Below are positions 1-55,616 of a stretch of 64,000 nt of DNA, one piece after another. The stretch's first letter is position 1. Each line of letters opens with the position of its first letter. A program made the translations under genes and the position numbers. This DNA is from the human T2T-CHM13v2.0 reference genome, Homo sapiens. The notes below the pieces were generated by a model. It did no database searches. It was not told the origin of the DNA and was given only the letters and a program-made list of their open reading frames with translations. The stretch covers positions 6,592,001 through 6,656,000 of the forward strand of contig CP068257.2 of assembly GCA_009914755.4 (NCBI GenBank), written 5' to 3'.

Positions 1-616
1 AGATACACAAGGAAGCTCTTACCAAAGTCATGGAGAGCAGGCAACATGTGGCAGAAGGGAATACAGAGGTGCAGAGGCTGATGATGTCAGAATCACAGGA
101 ACAGGATTTCTTTGGCTACTTTGGCTGAAATTCACCACTTCCATCCAATTCCAGTGAGAGACATGGACTCACAGATGCAGCATTTCTTGCAACAAGAGAT
201 ACTACTTTTTCAAAAAGTCACTGAGGAATTGATAGTGTTGAATGACTCAATACTCAATCGTGGACTGTTTCCAGTTCAAGGATACTTTCTACAGCAGAAT
301 AATAACACTAGCAAAGAGCTAGTACAAGGATGGTTTTGTGCTCAACTGAAATCCAGCTGAATACAGAATTGTATAGGAAACAGTTAATATGGTGATAGAA
401 TAGAAACAGTAGCAAATGTGAACTAAATCATGCTATGAATGCCTAAACTACTGCTGTAACTTTTGGAAAAATGATAATACCACTTTATTGCTTTTTGAAG
501 AATGAATATCTTAGTGTATATGCTCTAGACCTCAAACCCTATAAAGATTCTCAAAGAAGTTGGCTGGATAAAGCCTACTGTGGATGTCTTTATATTCAAA
601 GATTGATGATGCAATT
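1..616 (+). mobile_element. ERVL-MaLR internal region (3' portion, THE1/MST-int-like), directly upstream of its 3' LTR; paralogous to 28398-29014
   Basis: Continuous with the LTR at 617-965. About 88-90% identical to 28398-29014 by eye alignment. Short decayed ORFs (112..360). Confidence 0.55.
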
Positions 617-965
617 TGAATATGTGTCTCCTCCGAATCTCATGTTGAATTATATTTCCTAATGTGGAAGGTGGATCCTGGCATAACGTAATTGAATTAT
701 GAAGGCAAATTTCTCATGAATGGTTCAGCACCATCCCCTTGTACCGTCCTCACAATAATGAGTGACTTCTCATGAGGTCTGGTCACTGAAAACTCTATGT
801 CACCTCCCTACTCTCCGTGTTTTCCCCTTGCCATGTGAGACAACTAATTCTTTCTTTGCCTTCCATGATTATTGAAAGATATCTGAGGCCTCCTAGAAGC
901 AGAAGCACTGTGCTTAGAACCATGAGACAATTAAACCTATTTTTCAAAATAAATCATACAGAAAA
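617..965 (+). mobile_element. MaLR LTR (THE1/MST-like, ~350 bp)
   Basis: Matches the THE1-type LTR architecture: start ...caaatctcatgttgaattat..., mid ...catgaggtctggtc..., end ...catgagacaattaaacc...acagaaaat. Confidence 0.7.
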
Positions 966-1450
966 TGGCAAATGAGGACTGGAACACTGCTATAAAGATA
1001 CCTGGAAATGTGGAAGCAGCTTTGGAACCCGGTAATGGACGGAGGTTGGAAGAGTTTGGAAGGCTCAAAAGAAGACAGATAGATGAGAAAACTTTTGGAC
1101 CATCTTAGATTCTGGCTCAATTGTTGTGACAAAAATCCTGACAGAAACATGGACAATGAAGACCAGACTGAGGAGGTCTCAGAGAGAAATAAGCTTTCTG
1201 GAAAATGTCTTTATTTTGGATATGGAAAGCTTACACAATGCCTGTACCATCATTGTACCTTAGAAGCAGTGAACTTGCTTTTTTCAGAGACTCATAGGCA
1301 AAAGAGACTGCAGCCTTGACCCAGATGAGATTTGGACTTTGTAACTTTGAGTTAATCCTGAAATGAGTTAAGACTTTGGGAGACTGCTGGCAAGGCATGA
1401 TTGTATTTTGATGTGAGAAGGACATGAGATTCATGGGGTCAGGGACAGAA
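966..1450 (+). mobile_element. MaLR-type internal-sequence fragment (tail of the internal region of the array family)
   Basis: Same sequence as the internal tails at 4809-5152, 8074-8417 and 14573-14882 (...cttacacaatgcctgtaccatcattgtacc...gagaaggacatgagat...cagggacag). Confidence 0.55.
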
Positions 1451-1840
1451 TAATACGGTTTTTCTCTATGTCCCAACCAAAATTCATATGGAATTATATT
1501 TTGTAATGTTAGAGGCGGGGCCTAGGTGGAAAAAGATTTAGTCATAAAATGGTGCAGGTAGATACTTCACGAATGATAAAGGACCATCACCTTGATGCTA
1601 TCCTCCTGATAGTGAGTGACTTCTCATGAGATCTGGTTGTTTAACAGGCTGTGGAACCTCTTTCCTCACTCTGTCTTCCTCCTACTCCTGCTTTAGGAGA
1701 CATCTCATTGTCCCTTGGCTTTCTGATATAACGAGGAGTCTTCCTGATTCCTCCCAGAAACAGAAGACACAATGATTCCTTCACAGCTTGCAGAAACATG
1801 AGTCAATTACATGTCTTTTATTTACAATAATACAGAAAAT
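1451..1840 (+). mobile_element. MaLR LTR (diverged THE1/MST/MLT1-like, complete ~390 bp)
   Basis: aataatacggtttttctctatgtccc...ggcctaggtgg...gatagtgagtgacttctcatgagatctggttg...catgagtcaattac...acagaaaat is colinear with the THE1 LTR consensus. Confidence 0.7.
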
Positions 1841-2084
1841 TAGAACTGCAGAGAGGAGCTGTGAAGTGTCTTCAAGGCCTTTTTCCCTTTGTCTTGGCTA
1901 TTAGCACAGGGCTTCTTTATATGCAAATTTCTGAAATCTTCTTGAATGTTTCCCCTTAAATGGGATTTTTGTTATTGCTACCTAGCCAACCTGCTATACA
2001 GATAGCTAAAAAAGTAGAAGCAGGCTCAATAGTGGGTAGCAAACAAAGATTGGAAGGGCTTGGAGGGATTAGAGTACTAGAGGG

Positions 2085-2793
2085 AGTGGGAGGGAGTGAT
2101 TTAATCATGGATGGGTGGGGGTGTATGTGGAAGGGAAAAAGGGGTGGGTAGGGTGGGAGGGAGTAGACTGGCTGTATGGTGGTGGGAAGGTGGTGGGTAG
2201 TAGGAAGGGGGAGTAGCCTGCTGCAGAGGCAGAGCCTCATGGAAAATGCCTACTGGGGAAGTGCACCTGTGGCTTTGCAGGTCTGAGCCCCCATGGCTGC
2301 TCTCATAGATTGGACTAGTGTTGAGTGCCTGTAGCTTTTCCACACGGAGGGTGCAAGCTGTTGGTGGGTCTATGTATCTGGGGTCTGGAGGGTGGTAGCA
2401 TGGGGGCTCCAAGTCCATATTTTCCTTCTGCACTGCCCTAGTAGAGGTTTCCCAAGAACTCTTCGTCTGCAGGAGGCTACTGCATGGAAACAGTAGGAGG
2501 TGGGTGTGGGAGGCAGATCCTTCACCAATGGTTAGGCAACGTCTTCTTGATGCTGTCCTCATGATAGTGTGTTCTCATGAGATCTGGTTATATAACGGGG
2601 TGGCAACTCTTTCCTCTCGCAGTCTTGCTTCTACTCCTGCCATTTGAAATATCTCATTGCCCCTTGGCCTTCTGGTATGATTGGGAGGCTTCCTGATCTG
2701 ATCCTCCCAGAAGCAGAAGCCACTAAGCTTCCTTTACAGCCTGCTGTATAGTGAGCCAATTAAACCTCTTTTCTTTATGATCATACAGAAAAT
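2085..2793 (+). mobile_element. MaLR LTR (5' truncated) with a ~400 bp insert (G-rich segment plus inverted internal segment 2221-2480)
   Basis: LTR core motifs flank the insert. The insert is the reverse complement of the internal sequence at ~3869-4095. Confidence 0.65.
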
Positions 2794-4506
2794 CAGTGCT
2801 ATGAAGTGGAGCCATGAAATGCCTTCAAGGCCCTTTCCCCTTTGTCTTGGCAACCAGCACTCAGCTTCTTTTCATGCAAATATCTGAAGCCTTCGTGAAT
2901 TTTCCCCCGAAAATGGACTTTTCTGTTTTACCACATTGCCAGGCTCTGATAAAGATAGCTGACAATGTAGAACCAGGTTCAGAAGTGAGTAAAAGACAGA
3001 GGTCAGAAGAATTGGGAAAGCTTAGAAGACAGCAAGATGAGGAAAATATTGGACCACTATAGAGAATTGTTAAATACTTGTGATTAGAAGGCTGACAAAA
3101 GTTTAAACACTGAAGTCCAGACTTAAAAGGTCTCAGATGAAAATGAGGAATTTCCTATTAATAGAAGCCAAGATTACATTTGATTGGCCTTAGCAAAGAA
3201 GCTGGCTGCACGGGGACCCTGCCCTGGAGATCTGTGAAACTAGGAACTTAGGGGTGATGATTTAGGATGTATTTGGTGAAATGAACATCTAGGCAGCATA
3301 ACACAAGAGGTGACCTGTCCGCATTGAACAGCCTGTGTTCTTAAGGGTGACCTAAGAAATGACTTCAAGTTGGAACTTCAAGTGGAGATCTAAAGTTTGG
3401 AAAATTTGGAGCCTGGCCAAGTGGTCAAAAAGAAAAGCCGATTTTGAGGGGGAAATTTCAAGAAGGCTTAGGGTATTTGCATAAAAAGGAACCCAGTGCA
3501 AATAGCCAAGACAGTTTGAAACCGGCCTTGAAGGTATTTTAGAGAAGTCTGCAGCAGCCCTTGCTGTCACAGGCCCCTTGGCCTAGGAGAGAAGAATGGT
3601 TTCCTACGCCAGTCCCATGGCCCTGCTGCTGTGTTCAACCGCAGGACACTGCTGCCTGCATCTGTGCAGCTCCAGCACCAGCCATGGCTGAAAGACATAC
3701 AGGTACAGCTCGGGTCATTGCTTCAGAGGTGGCTCAAAGTCTTGAAGGTTTCCATATAGTGTTAAGCCAGTAGGTGCACAGAGAAAGAGACTAGAGGCTT
3801 GGGAGCTCCCGTCTAGACTCCAGAAGATGTACAGAAAATCCTGGATGTTCAGGAAGAAGCTTTTCCAAGAGGCAGAGCCTTATGGGGAACCTCTACTAGG
3901 GGAGCAAAGAAGGGACATATAAGGTTGAAGCCCCCACACAGGGAGGCATCACTCTCTAAACCCCAGATTCATAGACCCACAAACAGCTTGCACCCCTGGT
4001 GTGGAAAAGCTATGGGCACTCAACAACAGCCCTGTCCATGAGAGACAGCCACTGAGGCTGAACGCTGTAAAACCACAGGGGCAGATCTGCCCAAGGCCTT
4101 GGGAGCTCAGCCCTCACAGCCCTGTGCCATGGATATGGGACAAGGATTCAAAAATGATGATTTTGGAGCTGTAGCATTGAGTGACTGGCCTGCTGGGTTT
4201 TGGACATTTATGTATCCTATGAGTCCCTTCTGGGTTTTGTGCTTCTTTCTAGGAATTATTTTTTTCTGTTGGCTGGGAATGCTTACCCATTGCCTGTACA
4301 ATCCTTGTACCTTGGAAGTAGTAAATTTTCTTTATAATTCAGTGACTTATGGGCATAAGGGACTGTAAACTTGTCTCAGATAAGACTCTGGGCTTTGGGC
4401 CTTTGAGTAAATGCTGGAATGAGTTAAGATTTGAGAGACTCTAGGGAAGGCATCATTGCATTTTGCAATGTGAGAAAGACATGAACTTTGGGGGACCAGG
4501 GACAGA
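2794..4506 (+). mobile_element. MaLR internal region (full ~1.7 kb), unit A
   Basis: Begins right after the LTR end (..acagaaaat|cagtgctatgaagtggagccatgaaatgcc) and ends at the next LTR start (..cagggacag|aataatatgttttggctc). Confidence 0.65.
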
Positions 4507-5152
4507 ATAATATGTTTTGGCTCTCTCTCTCTACCAAAGCTCATGTGGAATATTAATGGGAAATGTTAAAAGTGGGGGCTGGTGGAAGGTGATTTCATCA
4601 TGGTGAAGAGTGGAGGTTGGATGGTTGGGGGGCGGGGAGGGTTGGAGGGATTGGGGGGCGAGGAGGGTTGGAGGGGATTGGGGGTTGGGAGGGTTGGAGG
4701 GGATTGTGGTGGGGTTGGGGATGAAAGGCAGGGGTGGGGGTTGATCCTTCACAAATGGTTAAACACCATCTCCTTAATGCTGTCCTTCTGATAGTGAGTT
4801 CTCTTCATGATTTTGGAGCTGTGAGATTGAATGAACACTGACCTACTGTATTTTGGATGTCCACTGGGCCTGTGGTCCCATTAGTGTTATTTTTCTTGGA
4901 AATTTCTTTCCTTTGGATTGAGAAAGCTTACCCAGTACCTGTACCATCATTGTACCTTGAAAGAAACAAACACCCTTTTAACTTCAGGGAATCATAGGCA
5001 GAAGAAACTGTAGCGTTGTCTCAGATGAGACTTTGAACTTTTTACATTTGAGTTAATGCAGGAAGGAGTTAAGGCTTTTGGAAACTTTTGAAAAGGTATG
5101 AATGTATTTTATTCTGTGAGAAGGATATGAGATTTGGGGGGTCAAGGTCAGC
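4507..5152 (+). mobile_element. Half-LTR (4507-4808, with a G-rich 19-20 bp tandem motif at 4611-4745) fused to an internal tail segment (4809-5152)
   Basis: The LTR breaks at gatagtgagttctc and joins the internal tail gattttggagctgtgagattgaatg...; the same junction is present in every unit. Confidence 0.65.
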
Positions 5153-5935
5153 ATAATATGATTTGGCTGTGTGCCCCTGGAAAAACTCATGTGGAATTGT
5201 AATGCCAAATGTTGGAAGCAGGACCAGGTGGGAGATTATTTAATCATGGATGGGAGGGGTAGGGGTGGAAAAAAATGGGGTGGGTAGGGTGGGGAAGAGT
5301 AGGCTGGCTGTAGGGTGGTGGGAGGGTGGTGGGTAGTAGGAAGGGGGAGTAGACTGCTGCAGAGGCAGAGGCTCATGGAAACCTCTACCAGGGCAGTGTG
5401 CCTGTGGCTTTGCAGGCTTTAGCTCCCATGGCTTCTCTCATGGGCTGGGCTGGTGTTGAGTGCCTATCACTTTTCCATACTGAGGGTGTGAACTGTTGGT
5501 AGGTCTATGAATCTGGGGTCTAGAGGATGGTGGCCTCCTGCATAGTCACTCAAAGCCCTTATTTTCCTTCCGCACTGCCATAGTACAGGATTCCCAAGAG
5601 CCTCTGCCTCTGCAGCAGGCTTCTGTCTGGAACACTAGGAGGTGGAGCTGTGTTGGGGGGCGGATCCTTCACCAATGGTTAAGCACCATCTTCTTGATGC
5701 TGACCTAGTGATAGTGAGTCCTCATGAGATCTGGTTATATAACGGTGTGGCACTTCTTTCCTCTCTCAGCCTTGCTCTTACTCCTGCCGTATGAAACATT
5801 TCATTGCTGTTTTCCTACTGGTATGATTGGGAGGCTTCCTGAGTCCTCCCAGAAGCAGAAGCCACTATGCTTTCTTTACAGCCTGCAGAACCATGAGCCA
5901 ATTAAACCCCTTTTCATTATGATCATACAGAAAAT
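5153..5935 (+). mobile_element. MaLR LTR with insert (inverted internal segment ~5356-5625), unit B
   Basis: ataatatgatttggctgtgtgcccc...catgagccaattaaacc...acagaaaat. Confidence 0.7.
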
Positions 5936-7610
5936 AAAGTACTGTGAAGTGGAGCTATGAAATATCTGCAATGACATTTCCCCATCGTCTTGGCTATTAG
6001 CACTGGACTTCTTTTTAATGCAAATATCTGAAGCCTTTTGAAGTTTCCCCCTGAAAATGGACTTCTTTTTCTTCTACATTGCCAGGCTGCAATAAAGATA
6101 GCTGAAAATGTAAAGCAGGTTCAGAAGTGGGTAACAGCCAGAGGTTGGAGAGTTTGGAGAGCTTGAAAGAAGACAGGAAGATGAAAGAAATTTTGGACCA
6201 TAGTAGGCACTTGTTGAATAGTTGTGATTAAAAGGCTGGCAGAAGGATGGACAGTGAAGGCCAGGCTTACAAGGTCTCAGATGAAAATGAGGAAATTACT
6301 GGGAACAGGAGCCAAGGTTACTTTTGTTTTGCTATAGCAAAGAACATGGCTGCAGGGCGACCTTGCCCTCGAGATCTGTGAAACTTTGAACTTGAGGGTG
6401 ATGATTTAGTACATATCTGGTGGAATGAACTTCTAGGCAGCATAGCACAAGGGGGATCCTGTCTGCATCAAACAGCCTGTGCTGTTGTGTGACCGAGGTT
6501 ATGTGTGACCGAGGAAATGACCTCAAGTTGGAACTTATATTTAAAAATGACAAGCAGAGCTCAAAAGTTTGGAACATTTGCAGCCTGGCCAAGTGGTCAA
6601 AAAGAAAAGCTGATTTTCAGGGGGAAAATTCATGAAGGCTCCAGAAATTTGCATAAAATGGAGGCCAGTGCTAATAGCCAAGACAATGGGGGAAAAAGCC
6701 TTGGAGGCATTTCAGAGATGTTTACAGCAGCATTTACTGTCACAGACCCTGGGGCCTCGGAGAGAATGGTTTCCGGGGCCAGCCCCATGGCCCTGCTGCT
6801 GTGTGCAGCCTCAGGACACTGCTGCCTGCATCCCAGCAGCCCAGCTCCTGCTCCGACCTTGGCTGAAAGATACACAGCTACAGATTGCATCACTGCTTCA
6901 GAGGGTACAAGCTATAAGGCTTCATGGCTTCCACATAGTGTTAAGCCAGCGAGTCCATAGAGCACTAGCCCAGAGGCTTCGGAGCCCTCATATAGATTTT
7001 GGAAGATGTACGAAAATGCTTGGGTGTCCAGACAGAAGGCTGCCAAAAAGCAGAGCCTCTTGGGAAACCTCTACTAGGGCAGTGCAGAAGGAAAATATGG
7101 GGTTGGAGCCCCCACACCGGAGGCCACCATCATGCAGACCCCAGACTCATAGACCCACCAAGAGTTTTGTACCCTCTGTGGGTGAAAACTACAGGCACTC
7201 AACACCAGCACAGCCCATGAGGGCAGCTGTGGGGACTGAAAACTGCAAAGCCACAGGTGCAGACCTGCCCAAGGCCTTGGGAGCCCAGCCCTCATGCCCT
7301 TGTGCCCTGGATGTGGGGCAAGGATTAAAAAAGGATGACTTTGGAGCTGTAGGTTTTAATAACTGGCCTGCTGGGTTTTGGATTTTCATGGGATCTGTAA
7401 GTCCCATTTGTGTTTCATTGCTTCTCTGGCAAAAATCTTCCTTTAGGATGGGAATTCTTACTCAATGCCTGGACAATCATACCTTGGAAGTAGTTAACTT
7501 GCTTTGTATTTCAGAGGCTCAGGAGCAGAACGGACAGCATCTTTGTCTCAGATGAGACTTTGGGCTTCAGACATTTAAGTAAATGCTGGAATGAGTTAAG
7601 ACGTTGGGGG
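5936..7610 (+). mobile_element. MaLR internal region, unit B. Holds the longest ORF in the window (6632..7555, 307 aa, no recognisable domain)
   Basis: Colinear with 2794-4506. The ORF is low-complexity and lies in a repeat. Confidence 0.6.
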
Positions 7611-7738
7611 TTTTAGCCAAGACGATGGGGAAAAGTCATTAAAGGCGTTTCATAGCTTCACTTCACAGTACTAATTTTCTGTATGATCATAACAAAAAGG
7701 GGTTTAATTGGCTCATCGTTCTGCAGGCTGTAAAAAAA
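7611..7738 (-). repeat. Small inverted fragment: reverse complement of the LTR-end/internal-start junction
   Basis: The reverse complement of tttcatagcttcacttcacagtactaattttctgtatgatcataa...ggtttaattggctcatcgttctgcaggctgtaaa matches the junction at ~5890-5990. Confidence 0.55.
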
Positions 7739-7825
7739 AAGCATAGTGGCTTGGGGAATGGTAAGTAAGGCATCACTGTATTTTGCAAAGTGAGAAGGAC
7801 ATGAGATTTGGGGAGGCAGGGACAG

Positions 7826-8417
7826 AAGAATAAGATTCGGCTGTGTGTCCCTATGGAAACTCATGTGGAATTGTAATCAGAAATGTTAAAATTGGGGCCA
7901 GGTGGAAGGTGATTTAATCATGGAGGGCACTGGGTGTTGGAAGGTGGAGATTGGGGAGGATGGGTGGATTATGCTGGGGGTGAGGGGTGAAAAGTGGGGG
8001 TGGGGGGATGATCCCTCACAAGTAGTTAAACACCATCTCCTTAATCCTTTCCTCATGATGGTGAGTTCTCGTGACGGTTTTGGAGCTGTGTGATTGAATG
8101 GATACTGACCTCCTGGGTTTTGGACTTGCGTTGGCCCTGTGATCACATTTGTGTTATTTTCCTGGCAAACTTCTACCCTTTGGATTGAGAAAACTTACCC
8201 AATGCCTGTACCATCATTGTACCTTGAAAGAAAAGAACTCACTTTTAAATTCAGGGACTTATAGGCAAAAGGGACTGTAGCCTTTTCTCAGGTGAGACGT
8301 GGAACTTTTTACATTCGAGTTAATGCTGAAATGACTTAAGACTTTTGGCAACTTTTGAAAAGGCATGATTGTATTTTACTCTGTGAGAAGGATATGATAT
8401 TTGGGGGATCAGGGTCA
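7826..8417 (+). mobile_element. Half-LTR (7826-8073, G-rich motif) plus internal tail (8074-8417)
   Basis: Same junction as at 4808/4809. Confidence 0.6.
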
Positions 8418-9185
8418 GAATAGTATGATTTAGCTGCGTGTCCCTACCTAAACTCACATGTAATTGTAATCCTGAATGTTGCAGGTGGGGCCTGGTGGGA
8501 AGTGACTTATTCATGGATGGGAGAGGGGTGGAGTTGGAAGTAAAAACAGGTGGGTAAGGTGGGGAGACGTAGGCTGGCTGTAGGGTGGTGTGTAGCAGGA
8601 GGGGAGTAGCCTGCCACAGAGGCAGAGGCTCATGGAAAACCTCTACTAAGGCAGTGCACCTGTGGCTTTGCAGGGTTTAGCACCTGCAGCTGCCCTCATG
8701 GGCTGGGCTGCTGTTGAGTGCCTGAAGCTTTTCCATACTGGGGGTGTGAGCTGTTGGTAGGTCCATGACTCTTGGGCTGTAGGATGGTGGCGTGGGGGCT
8801 CCAAGCCCATATTTTCCTTTTGCACTGCCCTAGTAGAGGTTTTCCAGGCGGATCTGTCTCTGTCTCAGGCTTTTGCTTGGAAACAGTGGGTAGTGGATAT
8901 GGGGTGGTGGGCGGATCCTTCACCAACAGTTAAGCACCATCTTGATGCTGACCTTCTGATAGTGAGCTCTCATGAGATCTAGTTGTATAACTGGATATTG
9001 CACTTCTTTCCTCTCTCTGTCTTGCTTCTACTCCTGCCATATGAAACATTTCATTGCTGCTTGGCCTTCTGGTATAATTGGGAGGCTTCCTGAGTCCCCC
9101 TACAAGCAGAAACCACTATGCTTTCTTTACAGCGTGAAGAACTGTGAGTCAATTAGACCTCTTTTCTTTATGTAGATACAGAAAA
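8418..9185 (+). mobile_element. MaLR LTR with insert (inverted internal segment ~8617-8875), unit C
   Basis: LTR motifs; ends ..gtgagtcaattagacc...acagaaaat. Confidence 0.7.
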
Positions 9186-10915
9186 TTAATGCTGTGAAGT
9201 GAAGTTATGAAATGACTTCTAGGTGTTTCCCCCATTCTCTTGGCTATTAGCGCTGAGCTTCTTTCAATGCAAATATTGGAGGCCATCTTGATGTTTCCCC
9301 TGATAATGGACTTTCCTTCTTTTACCACATTACCAGGCTGCAGCAAAGATAGCTGACAGTGTAGACGCAGGTTCCAAATTGGGTAGTGGCCAGAGGTTAG
9401 AGAGTTTGGAGAGCTTGGAAGAAGACAGGAAGATGAGGGAAATTTTGCACCATTGCAGAGACTTATTAAATAGTTGTGAGTAAAAGGCTGACAGAAGGAT
9501 GGACAGTGAAGACCAGCCTTGTAAGGTCTCAGATGAAAATGAGGAACTTACTGGGAAAAGGAGCCAAGGTTTTTTTGTTTTGACTTAGCAAAATAATTGG
9601 CTACACAGTGACCCTTCCCGGGAGATCTGTGAAACTGAACTCGAGGGTGATAATTTAGGGTGTATTTGGTGGAATGAACTTCTAAGCAGCAAAGTTCAAG
9701 AGTTGTACTGCCTACATCGAACAGCCTGTGCTCCTATGTGTGATGAAAGAAATGACCATAAGTTGGAACTTATATTTAAATGAGAAACATAGCTTCAACA
9801 TTTGGAAAATTTGTAATCTGGACAAGTGGTCAAAAAGAAAAGCTGATTTTCAGGGGGAAAATCAAGAAGGTTTAGGATATTTGCATAAAAAGGAGCCCAA
9901 TGCTAATAATTCAAGACAATGGGAAAAAGGCCTTGAAGGCATTTCAGAGACCTTTGTAGCAGTCCTTGCTGTCACTGGCCCTGGGGTTTAGGAGAAAAGA
10001 ATAGTTTCCTGGCTCAGCCCCATGGCTCCACTGCTGAGTGCAGCCTCAGGACACTACTGCCTGCATCCCTGCAGCTCCTTTTACAGCTTCAGCCATGGAT
10101 GAAAGATGTACAGGTACAGCTTGCAACACTGCTTCAGAGGATGCAAGCTCCAAGCCTTGGTGGCTTCTACATAGTGTTAAGCCAGCAGGTGCATAAAGCA
10201 CAGGACTAGAAGCTTCAGAGCCTTCGTCTGGACTCCAGAGAATATATCAGAAAGCCTGAGTGTCTAGCCAGAAGCTTTTCCAAGAGGCAGAGCCTCATGG
10301 TAAACCTCTACTCAGGTAGTAAACAAGGAAAGTATAGGGTTGGAGACCCCATAGAGGGAGGCACCATTTTCCAGACCTCGGTTTCATAGACCCACCAGCT
10401 GCTTGCACCCTTAGTGTTGAAAAGCTACAGGTATTCAACGCCAGCCTAGCCAATGAAGTCAGCTGTAGGGGGAAGAGTCTGCAATGCCACATGTGCAGAG
10501 CTGCCCAAGGCCTTGGGATCCCAGCCATCGCACCACCCTGTGCTCTGGATGTGGACATAGATTCCAAAAAGATGATTTGGAGCTGTATGATGGAATGACT
10601 GGCCTGCTGTGTTTTTGACTTGCAGGTGGTTTTTAAGTCTCATCTGTGTTTTGTGCTTCTTTCTGGCAAGTTTCTTCTTTTTGGCTTGGAATGCTTACCC
10701 AATGCCTGTACAATCATTGTACCTTGGAAGTGGTTAACTTGCTTTGTATTTCAGAGGCTCAGGGCAGAAGGTATGGCAGCCTTGTCTCAGAAGAGACTTT
10801 GGGCTTTAGACATTTGAGTAAACGCTGGGATGAGTTAAGATTTGGGGGACTCTAGGGAAGGCATCATTGCGTTTTGCAATGTGAGAAAGACATGAACTTT
10901 GGGGGACCAGGGACA
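9186..10915 (+). mobile_element. MaLR internal region, unit C
   Basis: Colinear with the other internal copies. Confidence 0.6.
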
Positions 10916-11815
10916 GAATAATATGTTTTGGCTCTGTGTCTCTACCAAAACTCATATGGAATTTTAATGGGAAATGTTAAAGGTGGGGGCTGGTGGAAGG
11001 TGATTTAATCATGATGGAGAGTGGAGGTGGGATGGTTGGGGGGGTGGGGAGGGTGGGGGTGATTAGGGGGTGGGGAGGGTTGGGGTGATTGTGGTGGGGT
11101 TGGGGGTGAAAGGCAGGGGCGGGGGGTGCATCCTTCACAAATGGACATTTGAGTAAATGCTGGAATGAGTTCAGACACTGGGGGACTGTAGAGGATGCAT
11201 CATTGTATTTTGCAGTATGAGAAGGATGTGAGATTGGGGAGCCAAAGGGAGAATAAAATGATTTGGCTCTATGTCCCTACCAAAACTCATGTTGAATTGT
11301 AATGGGGAATGTTAAACGTGGGGCTTGGTAGAAGATGATTTAATCATGGTAGAGAATGGGGGTTGGAAGGGGGATGTAGGAGAACGGAGGTTCATGGTGT
11401 GAGTGAAGGTGAAACATGGTGACGGGTGACAGATCCTTCACAAATGGTTAAATACTATCTCCTTAATGCAGTCTGTGTGATAGTGAGTTCTCATGATAAA
11501 TGAATGCTGTCCTGCTGGGTTTTGGAGTCGGATTGGGCCTGTGTCCCATTTGTGTTATTTTTCTGGGAAAATCTTCCCTTTGGTTTGAGAAAGCTTACCC
11601 AGTGCCTGTGCCATCGTTTTAACTTGAAAGAAAAGAATTGCATTTTACATTCAGGGACTTATAGGCAGAAGGGATTGGTCTTGTTCTGGATGAGACTTGA
11701 ACTTACTACATTTGAGTTACTGCTGGAATGAGTTAAGACTTTTTGAAACTTTTGAAAAGGCATGTTTGTATTTTTCTGTGTGAGAAAGACTTGAGATGTG
11801 GGGGTGTCAGGGTCA
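10916..11815 (+). mobile_element. Half-LTR (10916-11144), then a local duplication of internal tail plus half-LTR (11145-11493), then internal tail (11494-11815)
   Basis: At ~11144 the sequence jumps back to ...gacatttgagtaaatgctggaatgag..., repeating ~10806-11140. Confidence 0.55.
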
Positions 11816-12613
11816 GGATAATATGGTTCGGCTGTGTTTCTCTACAAAAACTCATGGGGAACAGCATTCCTGACTGTTGTAGGTGGGACCTGGTGGGAGG
11901 TGATTTAATCACAAACAGGAGGTTGGTAGGGGTGAAAGGGAAAATAAATGGGTAGGGTGGGGAGGAGTAGGCTGGCAGTAGGGTGGTGAGAGGGTGGTGG
12001 GCAGTAGGAAGGGGGAGTAGCCTGCTGCAGAGGCAGATCCTCATGGAAAACCTCTACCAGGGCTGTGCACCTGTGGTTTGCAGGGTGTAGCCGCCGTGGC
12101 TGCCCTCATAGGCTGGGCTGGTGTTGAGTGCCTGTAGCTTTTCCATACTGAGATTGCAAGCTGTTGGTGGGTCTATGAATCTGGGGTCTGAGGATGGTAA
12201 CCTCATGCGTGGGGCCTCCAAGCCCATCTATTTTTTCTGCTCTGCCCTAGTAGAGGTTTTCCTAGTGGCTCTGCCTCTGCCTCAGGCTTCTGCCTGGAAA
12301 CAGTGAGGGGTGTGGGTGGTAGGGGGCAGATCTTTCACCAATGGTTAAGCAATATCTTGATACTGACCTTGTGATAGTGAGTTCTCAGGAAATCTGGTTG
12401 TATAACAGGGTTATACAACGTGTGGCACCTTTTTCCTCTCTCTGTTTTTTTTTCTACTTCTGCCATATAAAACATCCCATTGCTGCTTGGTCTTCTGGTA
12501 TGATTGGGAGGCTTCCTGAATCTTCCCAGAAGCAGAAGCCTCTATGATTTATTTAGAGCTTGCAGAAACATCAGCCAGTTTAACCTCTTTTCTTTCTGAT
12601 TATACAAAAAAAT
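11816..12613 (+). mobile_element. MaLR LTR with insert (inverted internal segment ~12027-12290), unit D
   Basis: LTR motifs; ends ..atcagccagtttaacc... Confidence 0.65.
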
Positions 12614-16509: not shown

Positions 16510-16790
16510 GTCTATGGTCTGCACAGGATGGACGAGGCCAGGGAACAGGCAGGGTGGGCAGCTTGGTTTCAGGGAGAGGCAGGTGCATGCTGGGAGGTCA
16601 GACCCTATGAGGGTTGTGGGGGCGTCAGGTGGTGTGGGCTCCAGGTGCACCCTCAGCGCACTGGGCAGGTCTTGGCCCAGGCTCCCTGGACCTTGGCCGG
16701 GTGATGTGGTCACTTGCTGGGAGACTGTTGTCAGGTGCTGGCCACCCACCCTGGGTAGCACTGTCCCATCTCAGGACTGGACTTCCTCAG
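16510..16790 (+). repeat. Inverted repeat, left arm (~280 bp)
   Basis: Its reverse complement matches 17216-17496 at roughly 85-90%. The ORF track shows mirrored peptides (16489..16704 + and 17302..17523 -). Confidence 0.8.
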
Positions 16791-17215: not shown

Positions 17216-17496
17216 CTCAGAAAGTCCAGTTCTGGGATGGGACGGTGCTGCCCAGGGAGGGTGGCCAGGGTCTGACAACAGTCCCCCAGGGAGTGACCAC
17301 ATCACCCAGCCGGGGTCCAGGGAGCCTGGCCTGAGACCTGCCTGGTGCACTGAGGGTGCACCTGGAGCCCACTCCACCTGATGCCCCCACAGCCCTCACA
17401 GGTCCTGACCTCCCAGCATGCACCTGCCTCTCCCTGAATTCCAGCTGTCCACCCTGCCTGTTCCCTCACTTCCTCCATCCTGTCCAGCAGGATGGG
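17216..17496 (-). repeat. Inverted repeat, right arm; spacer ~425 bp
   Basis: See left arm. Confidence 0.8.
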
Positions 17497-25185: not shown

Positions 25186-27836
25186 AATGACCTGTAGTGA
25201 AATGCATGGTACAAACATGCATTCCCTGCTTCCTTGAGTGGGCAACGTTGATGGCTAGTCCAACCACTTCAGGCACACCCTTGCAAACACGGCTGGTTGC
25301 TTTTTGAGCCAGCTTGGCCTTGCCCGGCATACACAAGCCTCAATGCAACAACTGTGCTAAAAATGGAGCCACACAGAGGAAATGAGCAGCAAGCTCAGAA
25401 GCAGGGTGTGCACTGCCTTTGGGGCTCCAGTCCATGCCTCAGGGCTTGTATGGGACTGCAGGATTCTTGGTTGCCAAGAGGTAGACCATAGACCAGCCGA
25501 GGAGGACTTTATGTTCAAGGGCAGAAAGCAGCCAGGTTTACCACCCAGGGGACTCGGCCTTCTGTGGCCCCGGTCAGACTTAGAATTTGGCTCAAAGCAG
25601 GACCAGCTCACTCGGAGTAGTGTGTCAGTAGCTGGGGCCTGTACATGCTAGGCAAGGCTAAGCTGGCTCAAAGAGCAACCAGCTACCACTGCAAGGGTGC
25701 TTCTGGAGGAGGTGGAGCAGCCAGCAACCTCAGCTACACAAGGAAGCAGGGATGGCCAGGTTCTCACAGCATGAGTGGCCACCGCCTGATGGCTGATCAA
25801 GCAGAGGCCTGAGGAAAAGCAGATGGCAGTTGGGCCCTACCTCTAGGGTAGAAGAACTGATGTACTCTGACCGGTAGTGAGTGAGGTTGGTGGTGGGTCC
25901 ACCGGCTCCTGGCACACCCTTGCAGAGGAGGCTGTTTGCTCTTTAAGGCAGCTTGGCCTTGCCTGGCATGCACAGGCCCCAGGTACTGACACGCTGCTCC
26001 CAGTGAACTTGTTCTGCCTTGGACGAAATTCTAAGTGGCTTGGAGTTTGCCCAGCATGCACAAGCCTCAGTGTAATAACTGTGCAACAAACGGAGCCACA
26101 TAGACGAAACAAGCAGCAGGCTCAGAAGCAGGGTGTGCCCTGCCTTTGGGGCTCCAGTCAATGCCTCAGGGTTCCTATGGCACTGCGGATTTCTTGGTTG
26201 CCTAGCTGCAGACCACAGGCTGTCTTGAAGAGGACTTTATGTTCAAGTGCAGAAAGTAGTCAGGATTACCATCCAGGGGACTCTGCCTTCTGTGGTCCTC
26301 TCCAGACTTAGAATTTGGCCCAAGGCAGGACAAGCTGACTCGGAGAAGAGTGTCAGTACCTGGGGCCTATGCATGCCAGGCAAGGCCAAGCTGGCTCAGA
26401 GCAACCAACCACCTCTGCAAGGCTGTGCCTGTAGCAGGCAGACAAGCCAGCAACCTCACCCACTCAAGGAAGCCCGGATGGCGAGGTTCCAACAGCATGA
26501 GTAGCTGCCACCTGATGCCTGATGGAGCAGAGGCCTGAGGAAAAGCAGGTGGCATATTTAACTCTTTCATCAATCTTAAGTTAATTTTTGTATAAAGCAG
26601 ATGGCACTAGTCCATGCCTCATGGCTCATTATGGCACTGCGGGCCACAGAAGGGCAAGTACCCAGGGTGGTAATCTTGCCTGCTTTCTGCACTTGAACAT
26701 AAAGTGCTCCTCAAGATGGCCTGTGGTCTGCCTCTTGGCCCCACCTTTAGGGTAGAAGAACTGATGTACCACGTCTGGCAGTGAGTGAGATTGGCGGCTG
26801 GTCCATCTGCTCCTGGCACATCCTTGCAGAGGTGGCTGCTTGCTCTTTGAGCCAGCTTGGCCTTGCCTGGCATGCACAAGCCTCACTGCAACAAGTGTGC
26901 TACAAATGGAGCCATATAGAGGAAATGATCAGCAGGCTCAGGAATGGGGCGTGCACTGCCTTTGTGGCTCCAGTCCATGCCTCAGGGCTCGTATGGCACT
27001 GTAAGCTTCTTGGTCGCCAAGAGGCAGAACACAGGCTGTCTTGAGGAGGACTTTATGTTCAAGTGCAGAAAGCAGCCAAGATTAGCACCCAGGGGACTGG
27101 GCCTTCTGTGGCCCTGGTCAGACTTAGAATTTGACCCAAGGCAGGACAAGCTGACTCGGAGCAGAGTGTCAGTACCTGGGGCCTATGCATGCCAGGCAAA
27201 GCCAAGCTGGCTCAGAGCAACTAGCCACATCTGCAAGGCTGTGCCTGTAGTAGGCGGACAAGCCAGCAACCTCAGCTACTCAAGGAAGGAGGGATGGCCA
27301 GGTTCCCACAGCCTGAGTGGTTGCCGCCTGATGACTGACAGAGCAGAGGCCTGAGGAAAAGCATATGGCACTGGGGCCCTACCTCTAGGGTAGAATAACT
27401 GATGTAACCTGACCAGCAGTGAGTGAGGTTGGTGGCCGGTCCACCGGCTCCTGGCACAAACTTGCAGAGGTGGCTGATTGCTTTTTGAGCCAGCTTGGCC
27501 TTGCCCAGCATGCACAAGTCTGTGCAACAACTGTGACACAAATGGAGCCACACAGAGAAAATGAGCAGCAGGCTCAGGAGCAGGGTGTGTGCTTCCTCGG
27601 TGTCTCCAGTCCATGCCTGAGGATTCATATGGCACTGCGGGCTTCTTGGTTGCAAAGAGGTAGACCACAGGCCATCTTCAGGAGGTCTTTATGTGGAAGT
27701 GCAGAAAGCAGCCAGGATTACCACCCGTGGGACTCGGCCTGACAGAATTTGGTCCAAAGCAGGACAGGCTCACTCAGAGCAACATGTCGGTACCTGGAGC
27801 CTGTGCATGCTAGGCAAGGCCAAGCTGGCTCAAAGA
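25185..27836. repeat. Tandem array of a ~636-bp unit (about 4.2 copies) of unknown family, with one partly inverted unit (~26600-26740)
   Basis: ...ggctcctggcacacccttgcagagg.ggctg.ttgct.tttgagccagcttggccttgcc.ggcatgcacaagcctca... recurs at ~25264, 25900, 26810 and 27450. ORF-track peptides recur on both strands (LGLAWHAQA, STWGLCMPGKAKLAQ). Confidence 0.7.
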
Positions 27837-29014
27837 GCACCCAGAGCATCCATTCTGGTGGATGAGCCAACCACATGGCCAGCTTCTGGGTGTGGGCACA
27901 GTGCCACATCTTCCATCACTTTCTGATATATCCCACCACCACTGAAGAGACAGCCTGGAGAGAGTGCAAGAGGAAGGCTGAGAAGGATGAGATAGTGAGT
28001 GCTGGCTTCTTTCTGACCCTCAGCACACCCCCAGGTGGTGACCATCAACCTTTAGGGGTGGGAGAGCAAGACTGATGGCTTCAAATGGTTCCCCAAGAAG
28101 ATGGACACAGGCCACTCAGTTCAACCTCACAGCCAATGAGTTGACAAGCAAGCAGATGACAGTGACAGGCTTTTAGAAAGAGCATCAGAAGGTGGCCAGT
28201 TTTTCTTCAGCCTCAGCCAGGCCTTGGAACTTGACTAGGCCATCCACTTCACCAGAGATGCCTTCAAGAACATCAGTAAGCTCCTTGCCAGTCAGTCCAG
28301 GAAGGACCTGGACCCAGCCATGGACCTGTTAGTGCTGTCTCAGGGACACAAGACAAACATCCTGGACATCATCCACATACACAAGGAAGCTCTTACCAAA
28401 GTCACGGAGAACAGACAACATGTGGCAGAAGGGAAGACAGAGGTGCAGAGGCTGATGGCGTCATTATCACAGGAACAGGATTTCTTTGGCCACTTTGGCT
28501 GAAATTCACCACTTCCATCCAATTCACTCAAGTGAGAGACTTGAAATCACAGATGGAGCATTTCTTGCAACAAGAGATACTATTTTTTCAAAAAGTCACC
28601 TAAAATTTGATAGTGTTGAATGACTAGCTATTCGAGTGTGGACTTTTTCCTGTTCACGGGTACTTTCTACAGCAGAATGATAACAGTATCAAACAGCTGG
28701 TGCCAGCTATCGGTGGTAGTACAAGGATGACTTTGTGCTCAACTGAAACCCAGCTGAATATAGAATTGTGTAGGAAAGTGTTAATATGGTGATAGAATAG
28801 AAACAGTAACAAATGAACTAAATCATACTATGAATGCCTACACTACCATTATAACTTTTTGAAGAATGATAATACCACTTACTTTATTGCCTTTTGAAGT
28901 AGGAATATTTTAGTGGATATCCTATAGACCTGAAACCCTATAAAGAATCCCAAAGAAGCTGGCTGGATAAAGCCTGCTATGGATGTCTTTATACTCAAAG
29001 ACTGATGAGGCAAT
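27837..29014 (+). mobile_element. ERVL-MaLR internal region (3' portion); 28398-29014 is the paralogue of 1-616
   Basis: Continuous with the LTR at 29015-29379. ORF 28320..28502 shares a peptide with 112..360 (VTE.RQHVAEG.TEVQRLM.S.SQEQDFFG.FG). Confidence 0.55.
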
Positions 29015-29379
29015 TCGAATATGTATCCCCACCAAATCTCATGTTGAGTTATGCTTCCTAATGTTGGAGGTGGATCCTGGTATAAGGTGACTGAATCATG
29101 AAGGCAAATTTCTCATGAGTGGTTCAGCACCATCCCCTTGGTACTGTCCTCACAATCATGAGTGACTTCTCGTGAGATCTGGCCACTGAAAACTCTATAT
29201 CACTCTGTACTCTCCGTGATTTCCTCTTGCCATGTGAGACAATTCACTCTTTCATTACCTTGCACAATGATTGAAAGATTTCTGAGCCCCCCCAGAAGCA
29301 GAAGCACTAAGCTTCCTGTCCACTCTGCAGAACCATGAGCCAATTAAACCTCTTTTTCAAAATAAATCTTACCAAAAAT
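29015..29379 (+). mobile_element. MaLR LTR (THE1/MST-like), paralogue of 617-965
   Basis: ...gaatatgtatccccaccaaatctcatgttgagttatgc...catgagccaattaaacc... Confidence 0.7.
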
Positions 29380-29872
29380 GGCAAATGAGGACTGGAGCAT
29401 TGCTATAAAGATACCTGAAAATGTGGAAGCAACTTCGGAACTGGGTAATGGGTAGAGGTTGGAAGAGTTTGGAGGGCTCCAAAGAAGACAGACAGATGAG
29501 AACATTTTTGGATCATCTTAGAGACTGGTTAAATGGCTGTGACAAGAATGCTGACAAAAACATGGACAGTGAAGGCCAGGCTGAGGGGGCCTCAGATAAA
29601 AATAAGAAGCTTTCTGGAAAATGTCTCTCTTTTGGATATGGAAAGCTTACACAATGCCTGTACCATCATTGTACCTTAGACGCAGTGAACTTGCTTTTTA
29701 TTTCAGAGACTTGTAGGCAAAAGAGAATGTAGCCTTGACCCAGATGAGACTTTGCGCTTTGTAACTTTGAGTTAATGCTGAAATGAGTTAAGACTTTGGG
29801 AGACTGCTGGCAAGGCATGACTGTATCTTGCAATGTGAGAAGGACATGAGATTTGTGGGGTCAGGGACAGAA
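29380..29872 (+). mobile_element. MaLR-type internal tail fragment, paralogue of 966-1450
   Basis: About 90% identical by eye to 966-1450 (ORF 29421..29732 versus ORF 1083..1319). Confidence 0.55.
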
Positions 29873-30154
29873 TAATACGGTTTTTCTCTATGCCCCTTCC
29901 AAAACTCCTGTGAAAGTACACTCCCTAATGTTAGAGTCGGGGCCTAGGTGGAAAAAGCTTTAATCATAAAGGTGTGGGAGTGGATCCTTCACAAATGGCA
30001 AAGCACCAAGCCCTTAATGCCATCCTCCTGATAGTGAGTGAGTTCTCATGAGATCTAGTAGTTTAAAAGGCTGTGGAACCTCTTTCCTCTCTCTGTCTTG
30101 TTCCAACTTCTGCCATATGAAACATGTCATTGCCCCTTGGATTTCCGGTGTGGT
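29873..30154 (+). mobile_element. MaLR LTR truncated at the same point as the array-terminal LTR (junction to minisatellite)
   Basis: ...ccatatgaaacatgtcattgccccttggatttccggtgtgg|ttaggaggggcctgatcagtg. Confidence 0.65.
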
Positions 30155-31065
30155 TAGGAGGGGCCTGATCAGTGTGGGCCTGGTCAGTGGACCTAGGTCA
30201 GTGAGGACTATTTAGTGGGATCGTGGTCAACAGGGGTCTGCTTAGAGAGGGTCTCATTAGTGGGGTCTAGTAGTGGGGGTTTTGGTGAGTGGGGACCTAT
30301 TGGCTGCCAGTTGTTTGGTGTCTGGTCAGTGCAAACCTGGGCTGTGGGGCTTGATCAGTGGAGACCTGGTCAGCTGGGGCTTAGTGCTGACCTGGTCAGC
30401 ATGGGCTGGGGCACTGGTGACCAGGTCAAGGGGTGCTATTCAGTGGAGGACTGGGCACATGAGACTTAGTCAGCAGACCCTGGTGGGCGTGTCCTCATCA
30501 GTGAGGCCCTTGTCAGTGGGGCCCTGGTCAGGGCAGCCTTGTCGGTGGGACCTAATCTGTATTGTCCTGGTCAGAGAGGACTTGGTCAGTGGTGACTTTT
30601 GTAGCACCGGTCTACAGGGTGACCTGGTCAGCGGGGATCTCAGCATTTGGTGCCGGTTCAGTGAGGTCTACTCACTAGGGTCCCAGTCAGGGGCATCTGG
30701 TGACATAAGGCCTCGTTATTAGGGGCCTGATCAGTGGCAACCTGTTCCCTGGAGGCCTGGTCAGTGGGGCCTCATCTTTGGGGCCAGGGAATGAGGTCAT
30801 GATCAGTGGAACCTGATCAGTGAGGCCTTGTCAATAATGACCTAGTCAGTGAGGACTTGTCAGTAAGGACATAGTCCGTGAGGCCTTGTCAGTGAGTCCT
30901 TGTCAGTAAGGTCCTGGTCAGTGGAGTCCTTGTCATTGTGTGCCCGGCAGTGGGGGCCTTGTTAGTGGGGCCTGGTCATGAGGGTCTAATCAGTGAGGGT
31001 GTCATCAGGGAGGACCTGATGTGTGGGGTCTGGTCAGCAGGGACCTGGTCAATGTGGGCTGCTGA
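30155..31065. repeat. 15-bp minisatellite, paralogue of 15528-16310
   Basis: Same motif family and same flanks. Confidence 0.8.
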
Positions 31066-31224
31066 GCACTGCTTGGATAAGCCAGGTGCAATGTGCATTA
31101 TTGAAGGCCCTGTGGACAGCTGGGATAGCCCAGTGATGCCCAAGGGCCTAGTCAGAAGTGGACAAAGCACTTATTTGGATGGACCTGGGAGATCCTGCTC
31201 AGAGATTCTGACAGGACAAAGGTA

Positions 31225-31404
31225 AAGGAAGGGCCAGAGTGGCTGGAGAGATGGTCACAGTCTATGGGCTGCACAGGATGGAGGAGGCCAGGGAACAGGC
31301 AGGGTGGGCAGTTGGGGTTCAGGGAGAGGCAGGTGCATGCTGGGAGGTCAGACCCTGTGAGGGCTTTGGGGGCGTCAGGTTGGGTAGGCTCCAGGCACTC
31401 TTGC
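31225..31404 (+). repeat. Paralogue of the inverted-repeat left arm (16510-16690), truncated
   Basis: gtctatgggctgcacaggatggaggaggccagggaacaggcagggtgggcag... as at 16510. Confidence 0.7.
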
Positions 31405-55553: not shown

Positions 55554-55616
55554 AGAACATCAAGACTAGGAAGAAACTGCGTCAATTAACGAGCAAAATA
55601 ACCAGCTAACATCATA

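What the first reader, a model, noticed from the sequence alone, without database searches (positions are those of the whole stretch)
1..31404. Old intrachromosomal duplication: 1-1850 plus 15528-16790 has a paralogue at 28398-31404; one copy holds the expanded MaLR array and the other is collapsed
Both copies run MaLR internal, THE1-like LTR, short internal tail, LTR truncated at the identical base, 15-bp minisatellite, inverted-repeat arm. They are ~88-90% identical, suggesting several tens of millions of years of divergence. Copy 1 has ~13.4 kb of additional tandem MaLR units inserted between the second LTR and the minisatellite junction. Copy 2 has a single LTR there. So the array expanded (or collapsed) by unequal exchange between LTRs after the duplication. 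Copy 2 also lost the distal inverted-repeat arm to a 48-bp minisatellite.
Basis: seen in the sequence. Interest (0 to 1): 0.6.

Follow-up and report, generated by a model that had tools for sequence, protein, structure and literature searches.

The report
Old duplicate of known MaLR array
Two old copies (about 12-13% diverged) of a primate repeat block sit 28 kb apart; one keeps a 13.8-kb tandem array of a family described in 2008 and the other lost it by recombination between flanking LTRs, which is ordinary genome decay and not a new kind of element.

Summary
Window 3-1677 plus 15461-16654 is colinear with 28377-31396. Aligned bases are 87.6% identical (K2P 0.13-0.16), or 81-85% if gaps are counted. 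The two copies share an internally deleted MaLR, an LTR cut at the same base, a 14/15-bp minisatellite and part of an inverted-repeat arm, so this is true paralogy.

The interpretation needs four corrections:
- The extra DNA in copy 1 belongs to a published family, the ~3.5-kb "LTR arrays" of Warburton et al. 2008. Both of their PCR primers occur once per unit.
- The array is older than the duplication. Units differ by K2P 0.22-0.245, and two tamarin loci already carry an array. Copy 2 therefore collapsed; copy 1 did not expand. Its single LTR is a chimera, with the exchange at about 30089.
- The first segment is the tail of an SNX18-like pseudogene, not MaLR internal sequence. The duplicated block runs off the left edge of the window.
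- Copy 2 ends in the middle of the proximal arm. Loss "to" the 48-bp minisatellite is unproven, and a simple tandem duplication is excluded.

Whether copy 2 arose locally or was transposed in from a paralogous locus is open. This is ordinary and of low interest.

The parts
1..250 (+). Copy 1: 3' end of an SNX18-like (SNX9-family BAR domain) pseudogene, cut by the window edge
   Evidence: Pfam PF10456 BAR_3_WASP_bdg, E=9.4e-10, 38.7 bits against a cut-off of 24.9, residues 32-77 of frame 1 = nt 94-231. Homologous to 28377-28642.
612..962 (+). Copy 1: MaLR-type LTR upstream of the deleted internal region (approximate ends)
   Evidence: Read directly. Its copy-2 counterpart 29026-29182 aligns to LTR 1471-1636 at 68%.
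975..1431 (+). Copy 1: internally deleted MaLR internal region (probe positions 12-220 joined to 1361-1561)
   Evidence: The same deletion is in copy 2 at 29388-29873.
1440..1850 (+). Copy 1 left LTR ('c1L'), uninterrupted; the exchange point with copy 2 is at about 1677
1678..15460 (+). 13,783 bp present in copy 1 and absent from copy 2
   Evidence: Breakpoint taken from informative sites in the three-way LTR alignment.
2086..15533 (+). MaLR 'LTR array': units start at 2086, 5227, 8498 and 11893, plus a partial fifth from about 15100. Period 3.04-3.41 kb. Each unit holds one full MaLR internal region, an extra internal tail, split LTRs with G-rich inserts, and inverted internal fragments.
   Evidence: Self-BLAST, probe map, unit K2P 0.22-0.245. 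Warburton primers occur once per unit at 2209/5345/8602/12013/15051 (+) and 3690/6865/10101/13524 (-).
15355..15528 (+). Copy 1 terminal LTR ('c1R'), truncated at the same base as in copy 2
15528..16300 (+). Copy 1: degenerate 14/15-bp minisatellite (core TCAGTGAGGCCTTG, clearest at 16082-16185)
16519..16790 (+). Proximal inverted-repeat arm; homology with copy 2 stops at about 16654
17216..17487 (-). Distal inverted-repeat arm (86% complementary to the proximal arm); no counterpart after copy 2
25223..27844 (+). Array of about 640-820-bp units with ~100-nt internal inverted repeats. It lies just upstream of the copy-2 pseudogene and is part of the same duplicated block in other loci.
   Evidence: The same sequence precedes the SNX18-like fragment in tamarin L001 and L002 and in contig L003.
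27865..28624 (+). Copy 2: SNX18-like BAR-domain pseudogene with stops and frameshifts. The coding match is clear from 28065; DNA homology to other loci starts at about 27850-27897.
   Evidence: Translations, SNX33 4AKV E=4.8e-11, best named hit 'Sorting nexin-18 [Saguinus oedipus]', coordinates.
28377..30089 (+). Copy 2, left part, colinear with 3-1677
   Evidence: K2P 0.129.
29985..30155 (+). Copy 2 single recombinant LTR: c1L-like up to 30088 and c1R-like from 30090, truncated at 30155
   Evidence: Informative sites read RLRLLLLLLLLLLLLL|RRRRRRRLLRRRR. The best single breakpoint explains 25 of 29 sites; permutation p = 3e-4.
30090..31396 (+). Copy 2, right part, colinear with 15461-16654 (minisatellite 30155 to about 31010, arm fragment 31268-31395)
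   Evidence: K2P 0.156.
31404..32775 (+). 48-bp minisatellite (28.6 copies, 79% matches) that replaces the continuation of copy 2
   Evidence: The unit is found nowhere else in the window.
32811..32945 (+). MSTA-like LTR 3' fragment abutting the minisatellite

Best explanation
The window holds two ancient direct copies of one composite block. The block runs: repeat of ~0.7-kb units, SNX18-like pseudogene, internally deleted MaLR, tandem MaLR 'LTR array', truncated LTR, 14/15-bp minisatellite, short unique stretch. The block, with its array of ~3.3-kb units, already existed when the two copies separated, at about the time of the split between New World and Old World primates. Copy 1 (window start to about 16654) kept 4.2 array units. 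Copy 2 (at least 27865 to 31396) later lost 13.8 kb through unequal homologous exchange between the LTR left of the array and the truncated LTR at its right end, the same process that makes solo LTRs. That exchange left one chimeric LTR. The array itself is a member of the megasatellite family that Warburton et al. (2008) called 'LTR arrays', which lies in pericentromeric segmental duplications on many human chromosomes. Nothing here suggests a function; this is mutational history. Shown: the paralogy, the shared junctions, the chimeric LTR, the relative ages and the family membership. Inferred: that the loss was a recombinational deletion within copy 2, and the absolute dates.
For: Paralogy and shared junctions. 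The same MaLR internal deletion is in both copies. The chimeric LTR has a single switch point, p = 3e-4. Array units K2P 0.22-0.245, all about equally distant, against copy 1 vs copy 2 at 0.129 (left) and 0.156 (right). Tamarin locus L001 aligns in one HSP across window 1012-3734, that is through the exchange point into unit 1. It is equidistant from the two copies (K2P 0.181 and 0.182, against 0.133 between the copies), and one search shows a near trichotomy. A second and older tamarin paralogue, L002, also has a MaLR array directly after its SNX18-like fragment. Family membership: the description in PMC2588610 and its primers GGGAGTAGCCTGCTGCAGAGG and CTGTACCTGTGCATCTTTC, found once per unit with 0-3 mismatches and none expected by chance. 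Left extension: contigs L003 and L004 of the copy-1 type carry the pseudogene and the upstream repeat before the equivalent of window position 1.
Against: LTRs that are now only about 75% identical are poor substrates for homologous recombination, so the exchange may have used microhomology, or the chimera may reflect gene conversion. The chimera pattern alone is symmetrical: it fits an insertion into copy 1 by exchange with another array-bearing locus equally well, and only the ages and the outgroups decide the direction. Whether tamarin L001 is an orthologue is unproven in a multi-copy family, and L001 holds only about half an array unit before unrelated sequence begins. The species and chromosome of the window are unknown.
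Confidence: 0.8

Rival explanations
1. One reading: the ancestral block had one LTR, as copy 2 has now, and the array expanded in copy 1 by repeated unequal exchange after the duplication.
For: Copy 2 has a single LTR exactly where the array sits. Unequal exchange can also add units.
Against: The units are about 1.7 times more diverged from each other than the copies are, so they formed earlier. The two LTRs that flank the array differ far more than the copies do, and copy 2 is a mosaic of both. Tamarin L001 and L002 already carry array sequence. The same array family exists at many other loci.
Confidence: 0.04
2. Copy 2 was not made locally. It is a member of an older sub-type of the same block that was brought next to copy 1 by duplicative transposition of the pericentromeric kind, either already collapsed or collapsing afterwards.
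For: The block is multi-locus. Contigs L003 and L004 are closer to copy 1 (K2P 0.012-0.053) and L005 and L006 are closer to copy 2 (0.024-0.069) than the two copies are to each other (0.133). Warburton et al. report that these arrays lie in interrelated segmental duplications. A simple tandem duplication is excluded, because it is the upstream copy that keeps the original right-hand continuation.
Against: The copies lie in direct orientation only about 8.6 kb apart (copy 1 ends near 16654; the upstream repeat of copy 2 starts at 25223), which is what local duplication usually gives. Relatives of both types could simply be later copies of one large block that carries both. No locus was seen that carries a copy-2 type alone.
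Confidence: 0.15
3. There was no duplication: the similarity comes from independent insertions of related MaLR elements.
For: About a third of the aligned length (roughly 1.2 of 2.9 kb) is MaLR-derived.
Against: Homology runs through non-MaLR DNA: the SNX18-like pseudogene, the minisatellite, unique sequence and the inverted-repeat arm. It also runs across three idiosyncratic junctions, namely the internal deletion, the LTR truncation and the LTR/minisatellite join. Identity between the copies (88%) far exceeds identity to any other MaLR in the window (at most 78%).
Confidence: 0.01

Closest known systems
'LTR arrays' megasatellite family (Warburton et al. 2008, BMC Genomics 9:533, PMC2588610)
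   Same: Tandem monomers of about 3.5 kb made only of MaLR LTR and internal fragments in both orientations. Both published conserved-region primers are present once per unit, about 1.5-1.7 kb apart. The array has four units and is 13.4 kb long, like the 14.4-14.8-kb four-unit arrays listed at 1q12 and 4p11. Paralogous copies exist elsewhere.
   Different: There is no higher-order repeat and no LTR6A insertion, which are features of the chromosome 13/18/21 arrays. The units here are only about 80% alike. The chromosomal location of the window is unknown. The paper does not describe a collapsed paralogue next to an array, although it mentions small arrays of fewer than two units.
Solo-LTR formation / collapse of tandem LTR-retrotransposon arrays by unequal homologous recombination
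   Same: Direct LTR repeats flank the lost DNA. A single recombinant LTR remains, with one switch point, and the flanks are untouched.
   Different: The two parental LTRs were not the two ends of one provirus. They were the first LTR and the last, truncated LTR of a rearranged multi-unit array, and they were already well diverged at the time of the exchange.
SNX18P pseudogene family of primate genomes
   Same: A disrupted reading frame matches the C-terminal BAR (WASP-binding) domain of the SNX9/18/33 family. The best named database relative is an SNX18 fragment annotated in tamarin. The family is multi-copy.
   Different: Assignment to a particular SNX18P gene, and whether the fragment is processed or a genomic fragment, were not tested. 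That SNX18P genes are pericentromeric is my recollection, not a tool result.
Segmental duplications as catalogued in genome browsers (at least 1 kb and at least 90% identity)
   Same: A large low-copy duplicated block with colinear structure.
   Different: Self-chain alignments would show it.

Membership tests
LTR arrays (Warburton 2008) | Tandem array of monomers of about 3.5 kb | tested here: met
   Units start at 2086, 5227, 8498 and 11893. Primer-site spacings are 3136, 3257, 3411 and 3038 bp. The array holds 4.1-4.2 units.
LTR arrays (Warburton 2008) | Monomer built entirely of MaLR LTR and internal fragments in both orientations | tested here: met
   The MaLR internal probe matches once per unit over positions 23-1583 on the + strand. 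Each unit also has extra + strand tails (1255-1568) and - strand fragments (909-1180, 460-598), and LTR pieces lie between them.
LTR arrays (Warburton 2008) | Published primers to the conserved regions (2B GGGAGTAGCCTGCTGCAGAGG; 1A CTGTACCTGTGCATCTTTC) present in each monomer | tested here: met
   Primer 2B has 5 + strand sites with 0-2 mismatches and primer 1A has 4 - strand sites with 0-3 mismatches. They occur once per unit, with 0.00-0.04 expected by chance.
LTR arrays (Warburton 2008) | Embedded in pericentromeric, interrelated segmental duplications | not testable with these tools
   No primate genome map was available. Indirect support: paralogous contigs at 1-12% divergence.
LTR arrays, chromosome 13/18/21 subtype | Six-monomer higher-order repeat marked by an LTR6A insertion | tested here: not met
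   All unit pairs are about equally diverged (K2P 0.22-0.245) and there are no near-identical higher-order copies.
Recombinational collapse (solo-LTR type deletion) | The remaining LTR is a chimera of the two flanking LTRs with a single switch point | tested here: met
   14 of 16 informative sites are left-type and then 11 of 13 are right-type; permutation p = 3e-4.
Recombinational collapse (solo-LTR type deletion) | The deleted state is derived (the array is older than the split of the copies) | tested here: met
   Unit K2P 0.22-0.245 against copy K2P 0.13-0.16. Tamarin loci carry array sequence.
Simple tandem duplication | The upstream copy ends at a novel junction and the downstream copy continues into the original flank | tested here: not met
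   Copy 1 (upstream) continues seamlessly through the inverted-repeat arm, as shown by its match to the distal arm. Copy 2 breaks off at 31396 into unrelated minisatellite.
Browser-defined segmental duplication | At least 90% identity over at least 1 kb | tested here: not met
   87.6% in aligned bases and 78-85% with gaps.
SNX18-derived pseudogene | Significant match to the SNX9/18/33 BAR domain, with a disrupted frame | tested here: met
   PF10456 at 38.7 bits, above the 24.9 cut-off. SNX33 4AKV E=4.8e-11. Stops and frameshifts are visible.
SNX18-derived pseudogene | Closer to SNX18 than to SNX33 or SNX9 | tested here: inconclusive
   The only named hit is 'Sorting nexin-18 [Saguinus oedipus]', which is itself the fragment in L001. 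No authentic full-length SNX18 was retrieved for comparison.

The most novel reading that the evidence does not exclude
This locus could be the ancestral source site, or a faithful copy of it, of the whole SNX18-pseudogene/LTR-array block. It would then preserve side by side the two oldest sub-types, one array-bearing and one collapsed, that later seeded the pericentromeric arrays on many chromosomes. With complete primate assemblies it would allow the origin of the largest human megasatellite family to be reconstructed step by step, including the transition from 2.1-kb units (tamarin L002) to 3.3-kb units.
Probability: 0.08. Interest if true: 0.3.

Novelty: already known. Interest (0 to 1): 0.12.

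Why it matters
It matters little beyond annotation. The array family, its spread by duplication and the reshaping of its arrays by unequal crossing-over were described in 2008. LTR-LTR collapse is textbook. The case is a clean example of how to tell 'collapsed' from 'expanded': compare unit divergence with copy divergence, look for a chimeric LTR, and use an outgroup locus. It also links the LTR arrays physically to an SNX18-like pseudogene and an upstream repeat in one block that is shared between tamarin and the primate of this window. That link could help in tracing the history of pericentromeric duplications.

Tried and rejected
The internal-region probe worked well.
2. Tandem-duplication model with a 28.4-kb period: rejected, because the upstream copy keeps the original continuation.
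3. Homology beyond the 48-bp minisatellite to sequence after 16654: none apart from L1 fragments. The 48-bp unit occurs nowhere else in the window.
4. CpG-island scan: none found.
5. Exact-sequence look-ups of 12 window ORFs, meant to identify the species or extend the window: all absent from the collection. The species and locus stay unknown.
6. A literature search for SNX18P returned only gene-list mentions. The OwlRep/HSAT6 paper concerns a different MSTA cluster.
7. Pfam on the long MaLR ORF and on GC-rich ORFs at 16.5 and 20.2 kb: no families.
8. Contigs L005 and L006 were fetched as possible orthologues of copy 2. They are mosaic paralogues, about 90% identical overall but K2P 0.024-0.069 to copy 2 in the last 330 nt. 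They help define two sub-types but do not date the collapse.


Full report
**What the window is.** It is primate-type DNA. CpG observed/expected is 0.17, there are no CpG islands, and there are about 20 Alu copies, all beyond 35.5 kb. They serve only as probes and are flagged as such. The species and chromosome could not be established, because exact look-ups of 12 window ORFs found nothing.

**Check of the observation.**
- Self-BLAST finds 3-1723 ~ 28377-30145 (85.2%), 15401-15751 ~ 30025-30367 (82%) and 15768-16645 ~ 30503-31395 (84.8%). All are direct and colinear.
- In a global alignment the stitched copy 1 and copy 2 share 87.6% of about 2,835 aligned bases (K2P 0.136), with 25-27 gap events.
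- Three idiosyncratic junctions are shared. The first is a MaLR internal region deleted from probe position about 220 to 1361 (975-1431 and 29388-29873). The second is an LTR truncated at the same base and joined to the same sequence, GGTTAGGAGG|GGCCTGATCAGTG, while five other LTR copies read through. The third is a degenerate 14/15-bp minisatellite.
- This is true paralogy, not independent insertion of similar elements.
Copy 2 aligns from 28377 and ends at 31396, and position 1 is merely the window edge.

**What the extra DNA in copy 1 is.**
- Positions 2086-15533 hold 4.1-4.2 tandem units of 3.04-3.41 kb.
- Each unit holds one complete MaLR internal region, a second internal tail, LTR halves split by G-rich inserts, and two inverted internal fragments. 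A rearranged composite was therefore amplified, not a simple LTR-internal unit.
- A literature search led to Warburton et al. 2008 (PMC2588610). They describe "LTR arrays": monomers of about 3.5 kb made entirely of MaLR LTRs and MSTA-int in both orientations. They count 25 arrays on nine or more human chromosomes, mostly pericentromeric and embedded in segmental duplications. The list includes four-unit arrays of 14.4-14.8 kb at 1q12 and 4p11.
- Their two conserved-region primers occur once per unit in this window. GGGAGTAGCCTGCTGCAGAGG is at 2209, 5345, 8602, 12013 and 15051, and CTGTACCTGTGCATCTTTC is at 3690, 6865, 10101 and 13524. Mismatches are 0-3 and essentially none are expected by chance.
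- That is a direct membership test and it is met. The six-monomer higher-order repeat with LTR6A, which is specific to chromosomes 13, 18 and 21, is absent here.

**Expanded or collapsed.** Three lines agree that copy 2 collapsed.
1. Array units differ from one another by K2P 0.22-0.245 and are all about equally distant. The two copies differ by 0.129 on the left and 0.156 on the right. The array was therefore built well before the copies separated.
2. Copy 2's single LTR is a chimera. Of 29 informative sites, 14 of the first 16 match the LTR left of the array (c1L), and from 30090 onward 11 of 13 match the truncated LTR at its right end (c1R). The permutation p-value is 3e-4. Indels agree with this pattern. 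The exchange point is at about 1677/15461, and the DNA missing from copy 2 is 13,783 bp.
3. A search with the translated pseudogene (see the next section) retrieved two cotton-top tamarin loci.
   - L001 aligns in one HSP to window 1012-3734, that is through the exchange point and into array unit 1.
   - L001 is equally distant from both copies: K2P 0.181 and 0.182, against 0.133 between the copies. One search shows a near trichotomy.
   - L002, a more distant paralogue, has an array of ~2.1-kb MaLR units directly after its pseudogene.

Under any rooting the array is ancestral and copy 2 lost it, most simply by unequal homologous exchange between the flanking LTRs, as in solo-LTR formation. 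The chimera alone would also fit an insertion; the ages and the outgroups decide the direction.

**What the first segment is.**
- Positions 1 to about 600 have no match to the MaLR internal probe or to the array units.
- Frame 1 of 1-357 matches Pfam PF10456, the WASP-binding BAR domain of the SNX9/18/33 family (E=9.4e-10, above the curated cut-off).
- In copy 2 the same reading frame, broken by stops and frameshifts, continues upstream to at least 28065. It matches SNX33 (4AKV) at E=4.8e-11.
- The only named database relative is a tamarin fragment annotated as sorting nexin-18. Gene symbols of the form SNX18P exist in the literature.
- Contigs L003 and L004 are of the copy-1 type (K2P 0.044-0.053 to copy 1, 0.11-0.125 to copy 2); L003 comes from a human bile metagenome. 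L003 carries the pseudogene and a unit of the 25.2-27.8-kb repeat before the equivalent of window position 1; L004 carries the pseudogene. The same order is seen in both tamarin loci.
- The duplicated block therefore includes the upstream repeat and the pseudogene, and copy 1 runs off the left edge of the window.

**The right end.**
- The proximal arm of the inverted repeat groups with the copy-2 fragment against the distal arm (15, 5 and 7 informative sites). The inverted repeat therefore predates the direct duplication.
- Copy 2's homology stops at 31396, halfway along the proximal arm. It is followed by a 48-bp minisatellite and an MSTA-like LTR remnant, and then by nothing related to the DNA after 16654.
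- This may be a later loss or simply the duplication breakpoint.
- A simple tandem duplication is excluded, because it is the upstream copy that keeps the original continuation.

**Local or not.** In the 330 nt shared by all available relatives, two clades appear: copy 1 with L003 and L004 (K2P 0.012-0.028), and copy 2 with L005 and L006 (0.024-0.069). The clades are 0.08-0.13 apart, and tamarin L001 sits near the split. Both sub-types therefore have later copies elsewhere. This fits a large block carrying both being re-duplicated, but it equally allows copy 2 to have arrived by transposition. I give a local origin the edge because of the direct orientation and the 8.6-kb spacing, but this is an inference.

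**Dating (inference).** K2P of 0.13-0.16 between the copies, with commonly used primate neutral rates of 1-2.2e-9 per site per year, gives roughly 30-70 million years. The near trichotomy with the tamarin locus points to about the time of the platyrrhine-catarrhine split. At 87.6% identity the pair falls below the 90% threshold of segmental-duplication tracks.

**Verdict.** The element belongs to a published family and the mechanism is textbook. Interest is low.

Noticed in passing
window 1-250 and 27865-28624: Remnants of an SNX18-like (SNX9-family BAR domain) pseudogene head both copies of the duplicated block. In tamarin L001 the next gene upstream carries CCDC144C/DUF3496 domains.
   Followed up: yes
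window 25223-27844: About 3.5-4 tandem units of 640-820 bp (80-86% alike). Each contains ~100-nt inverted sub-repeats about 270-290 nt apart. One unit of the same sequence precedes the SNX18-like fragment in tamarin L001 and L002 and in contig L003. Its origin is unknown.
   Followed up: partly
This is a sharp change in repeat landscape at about 35.5 kb.
   Followed up: no
window 31404-32775 and 32811-32945: A 48-bp minisatellite (28.6 copies) abuts a deleted MSTA-like LTR. The 3' part of the unit (GTCTGAATGTTTGTCC) resembles the 5' start of that LTR as I recall it, so the minisatellite may have grown from an internal/LTR junction of another MaLR.
   Followed up: partly
window 4611-4706, 11026-11105, 11952-12008 and the whole array 2001-16000: G-rich 26-bp repeats lie inside the split LTRs of the array units. 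The + strand has a strong GC skew (0.10-0.30) along the whole array, so the sequence is potentially prone to forming G-quadruplexes.
   Followed up: no
L002 11743-18365 (tamarin CM063177.1, about 18.39 Mb): An older paralogue has an array of ~2.1-kb MaLR units (73-75% alike) after its SNX18-like fragment. It lacks the ~1-kb segment (extra internal tail plus inverted fragment) of the 3.3-kb units, so it may be a more primitive form of the array.
   Followed up: partly
L005 1-601 (metagenome contig) against window 28052-28671: Mosaic divergence: the last 295 nt are K2P 0.024 from copy 2, while the first 300 nt are about 11% different and closer to the copy-1 type. This suggests gene conversion between paralogues.
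   Followed up: no
L001 10497/10503 against window 245-1012 and 28642-29425: The tamarin locus lacks about 770 bp that both window copies have (pseudogene downstream sequence plus the first MaLR LTR). This is either an insertion before the duplication or a deletion in tamarin.
   Followed up: no
window 62325-63479, 47869-48272, 33988-34596: Further tandem repeats: a 35-bp minisatellite (33 copies), a 57-bp repeat (7 copies), and 157-bp and 100-bp repeats (2-3 copies).
   Followed up: no
window 54394-59640, 21507-25169: An L1 with long ORF1/ORF2 remnants lies at 54.4-59.6 kb. L1 fragments, partly inverted, lie in the spacer between the two copies.
   Followed up: no
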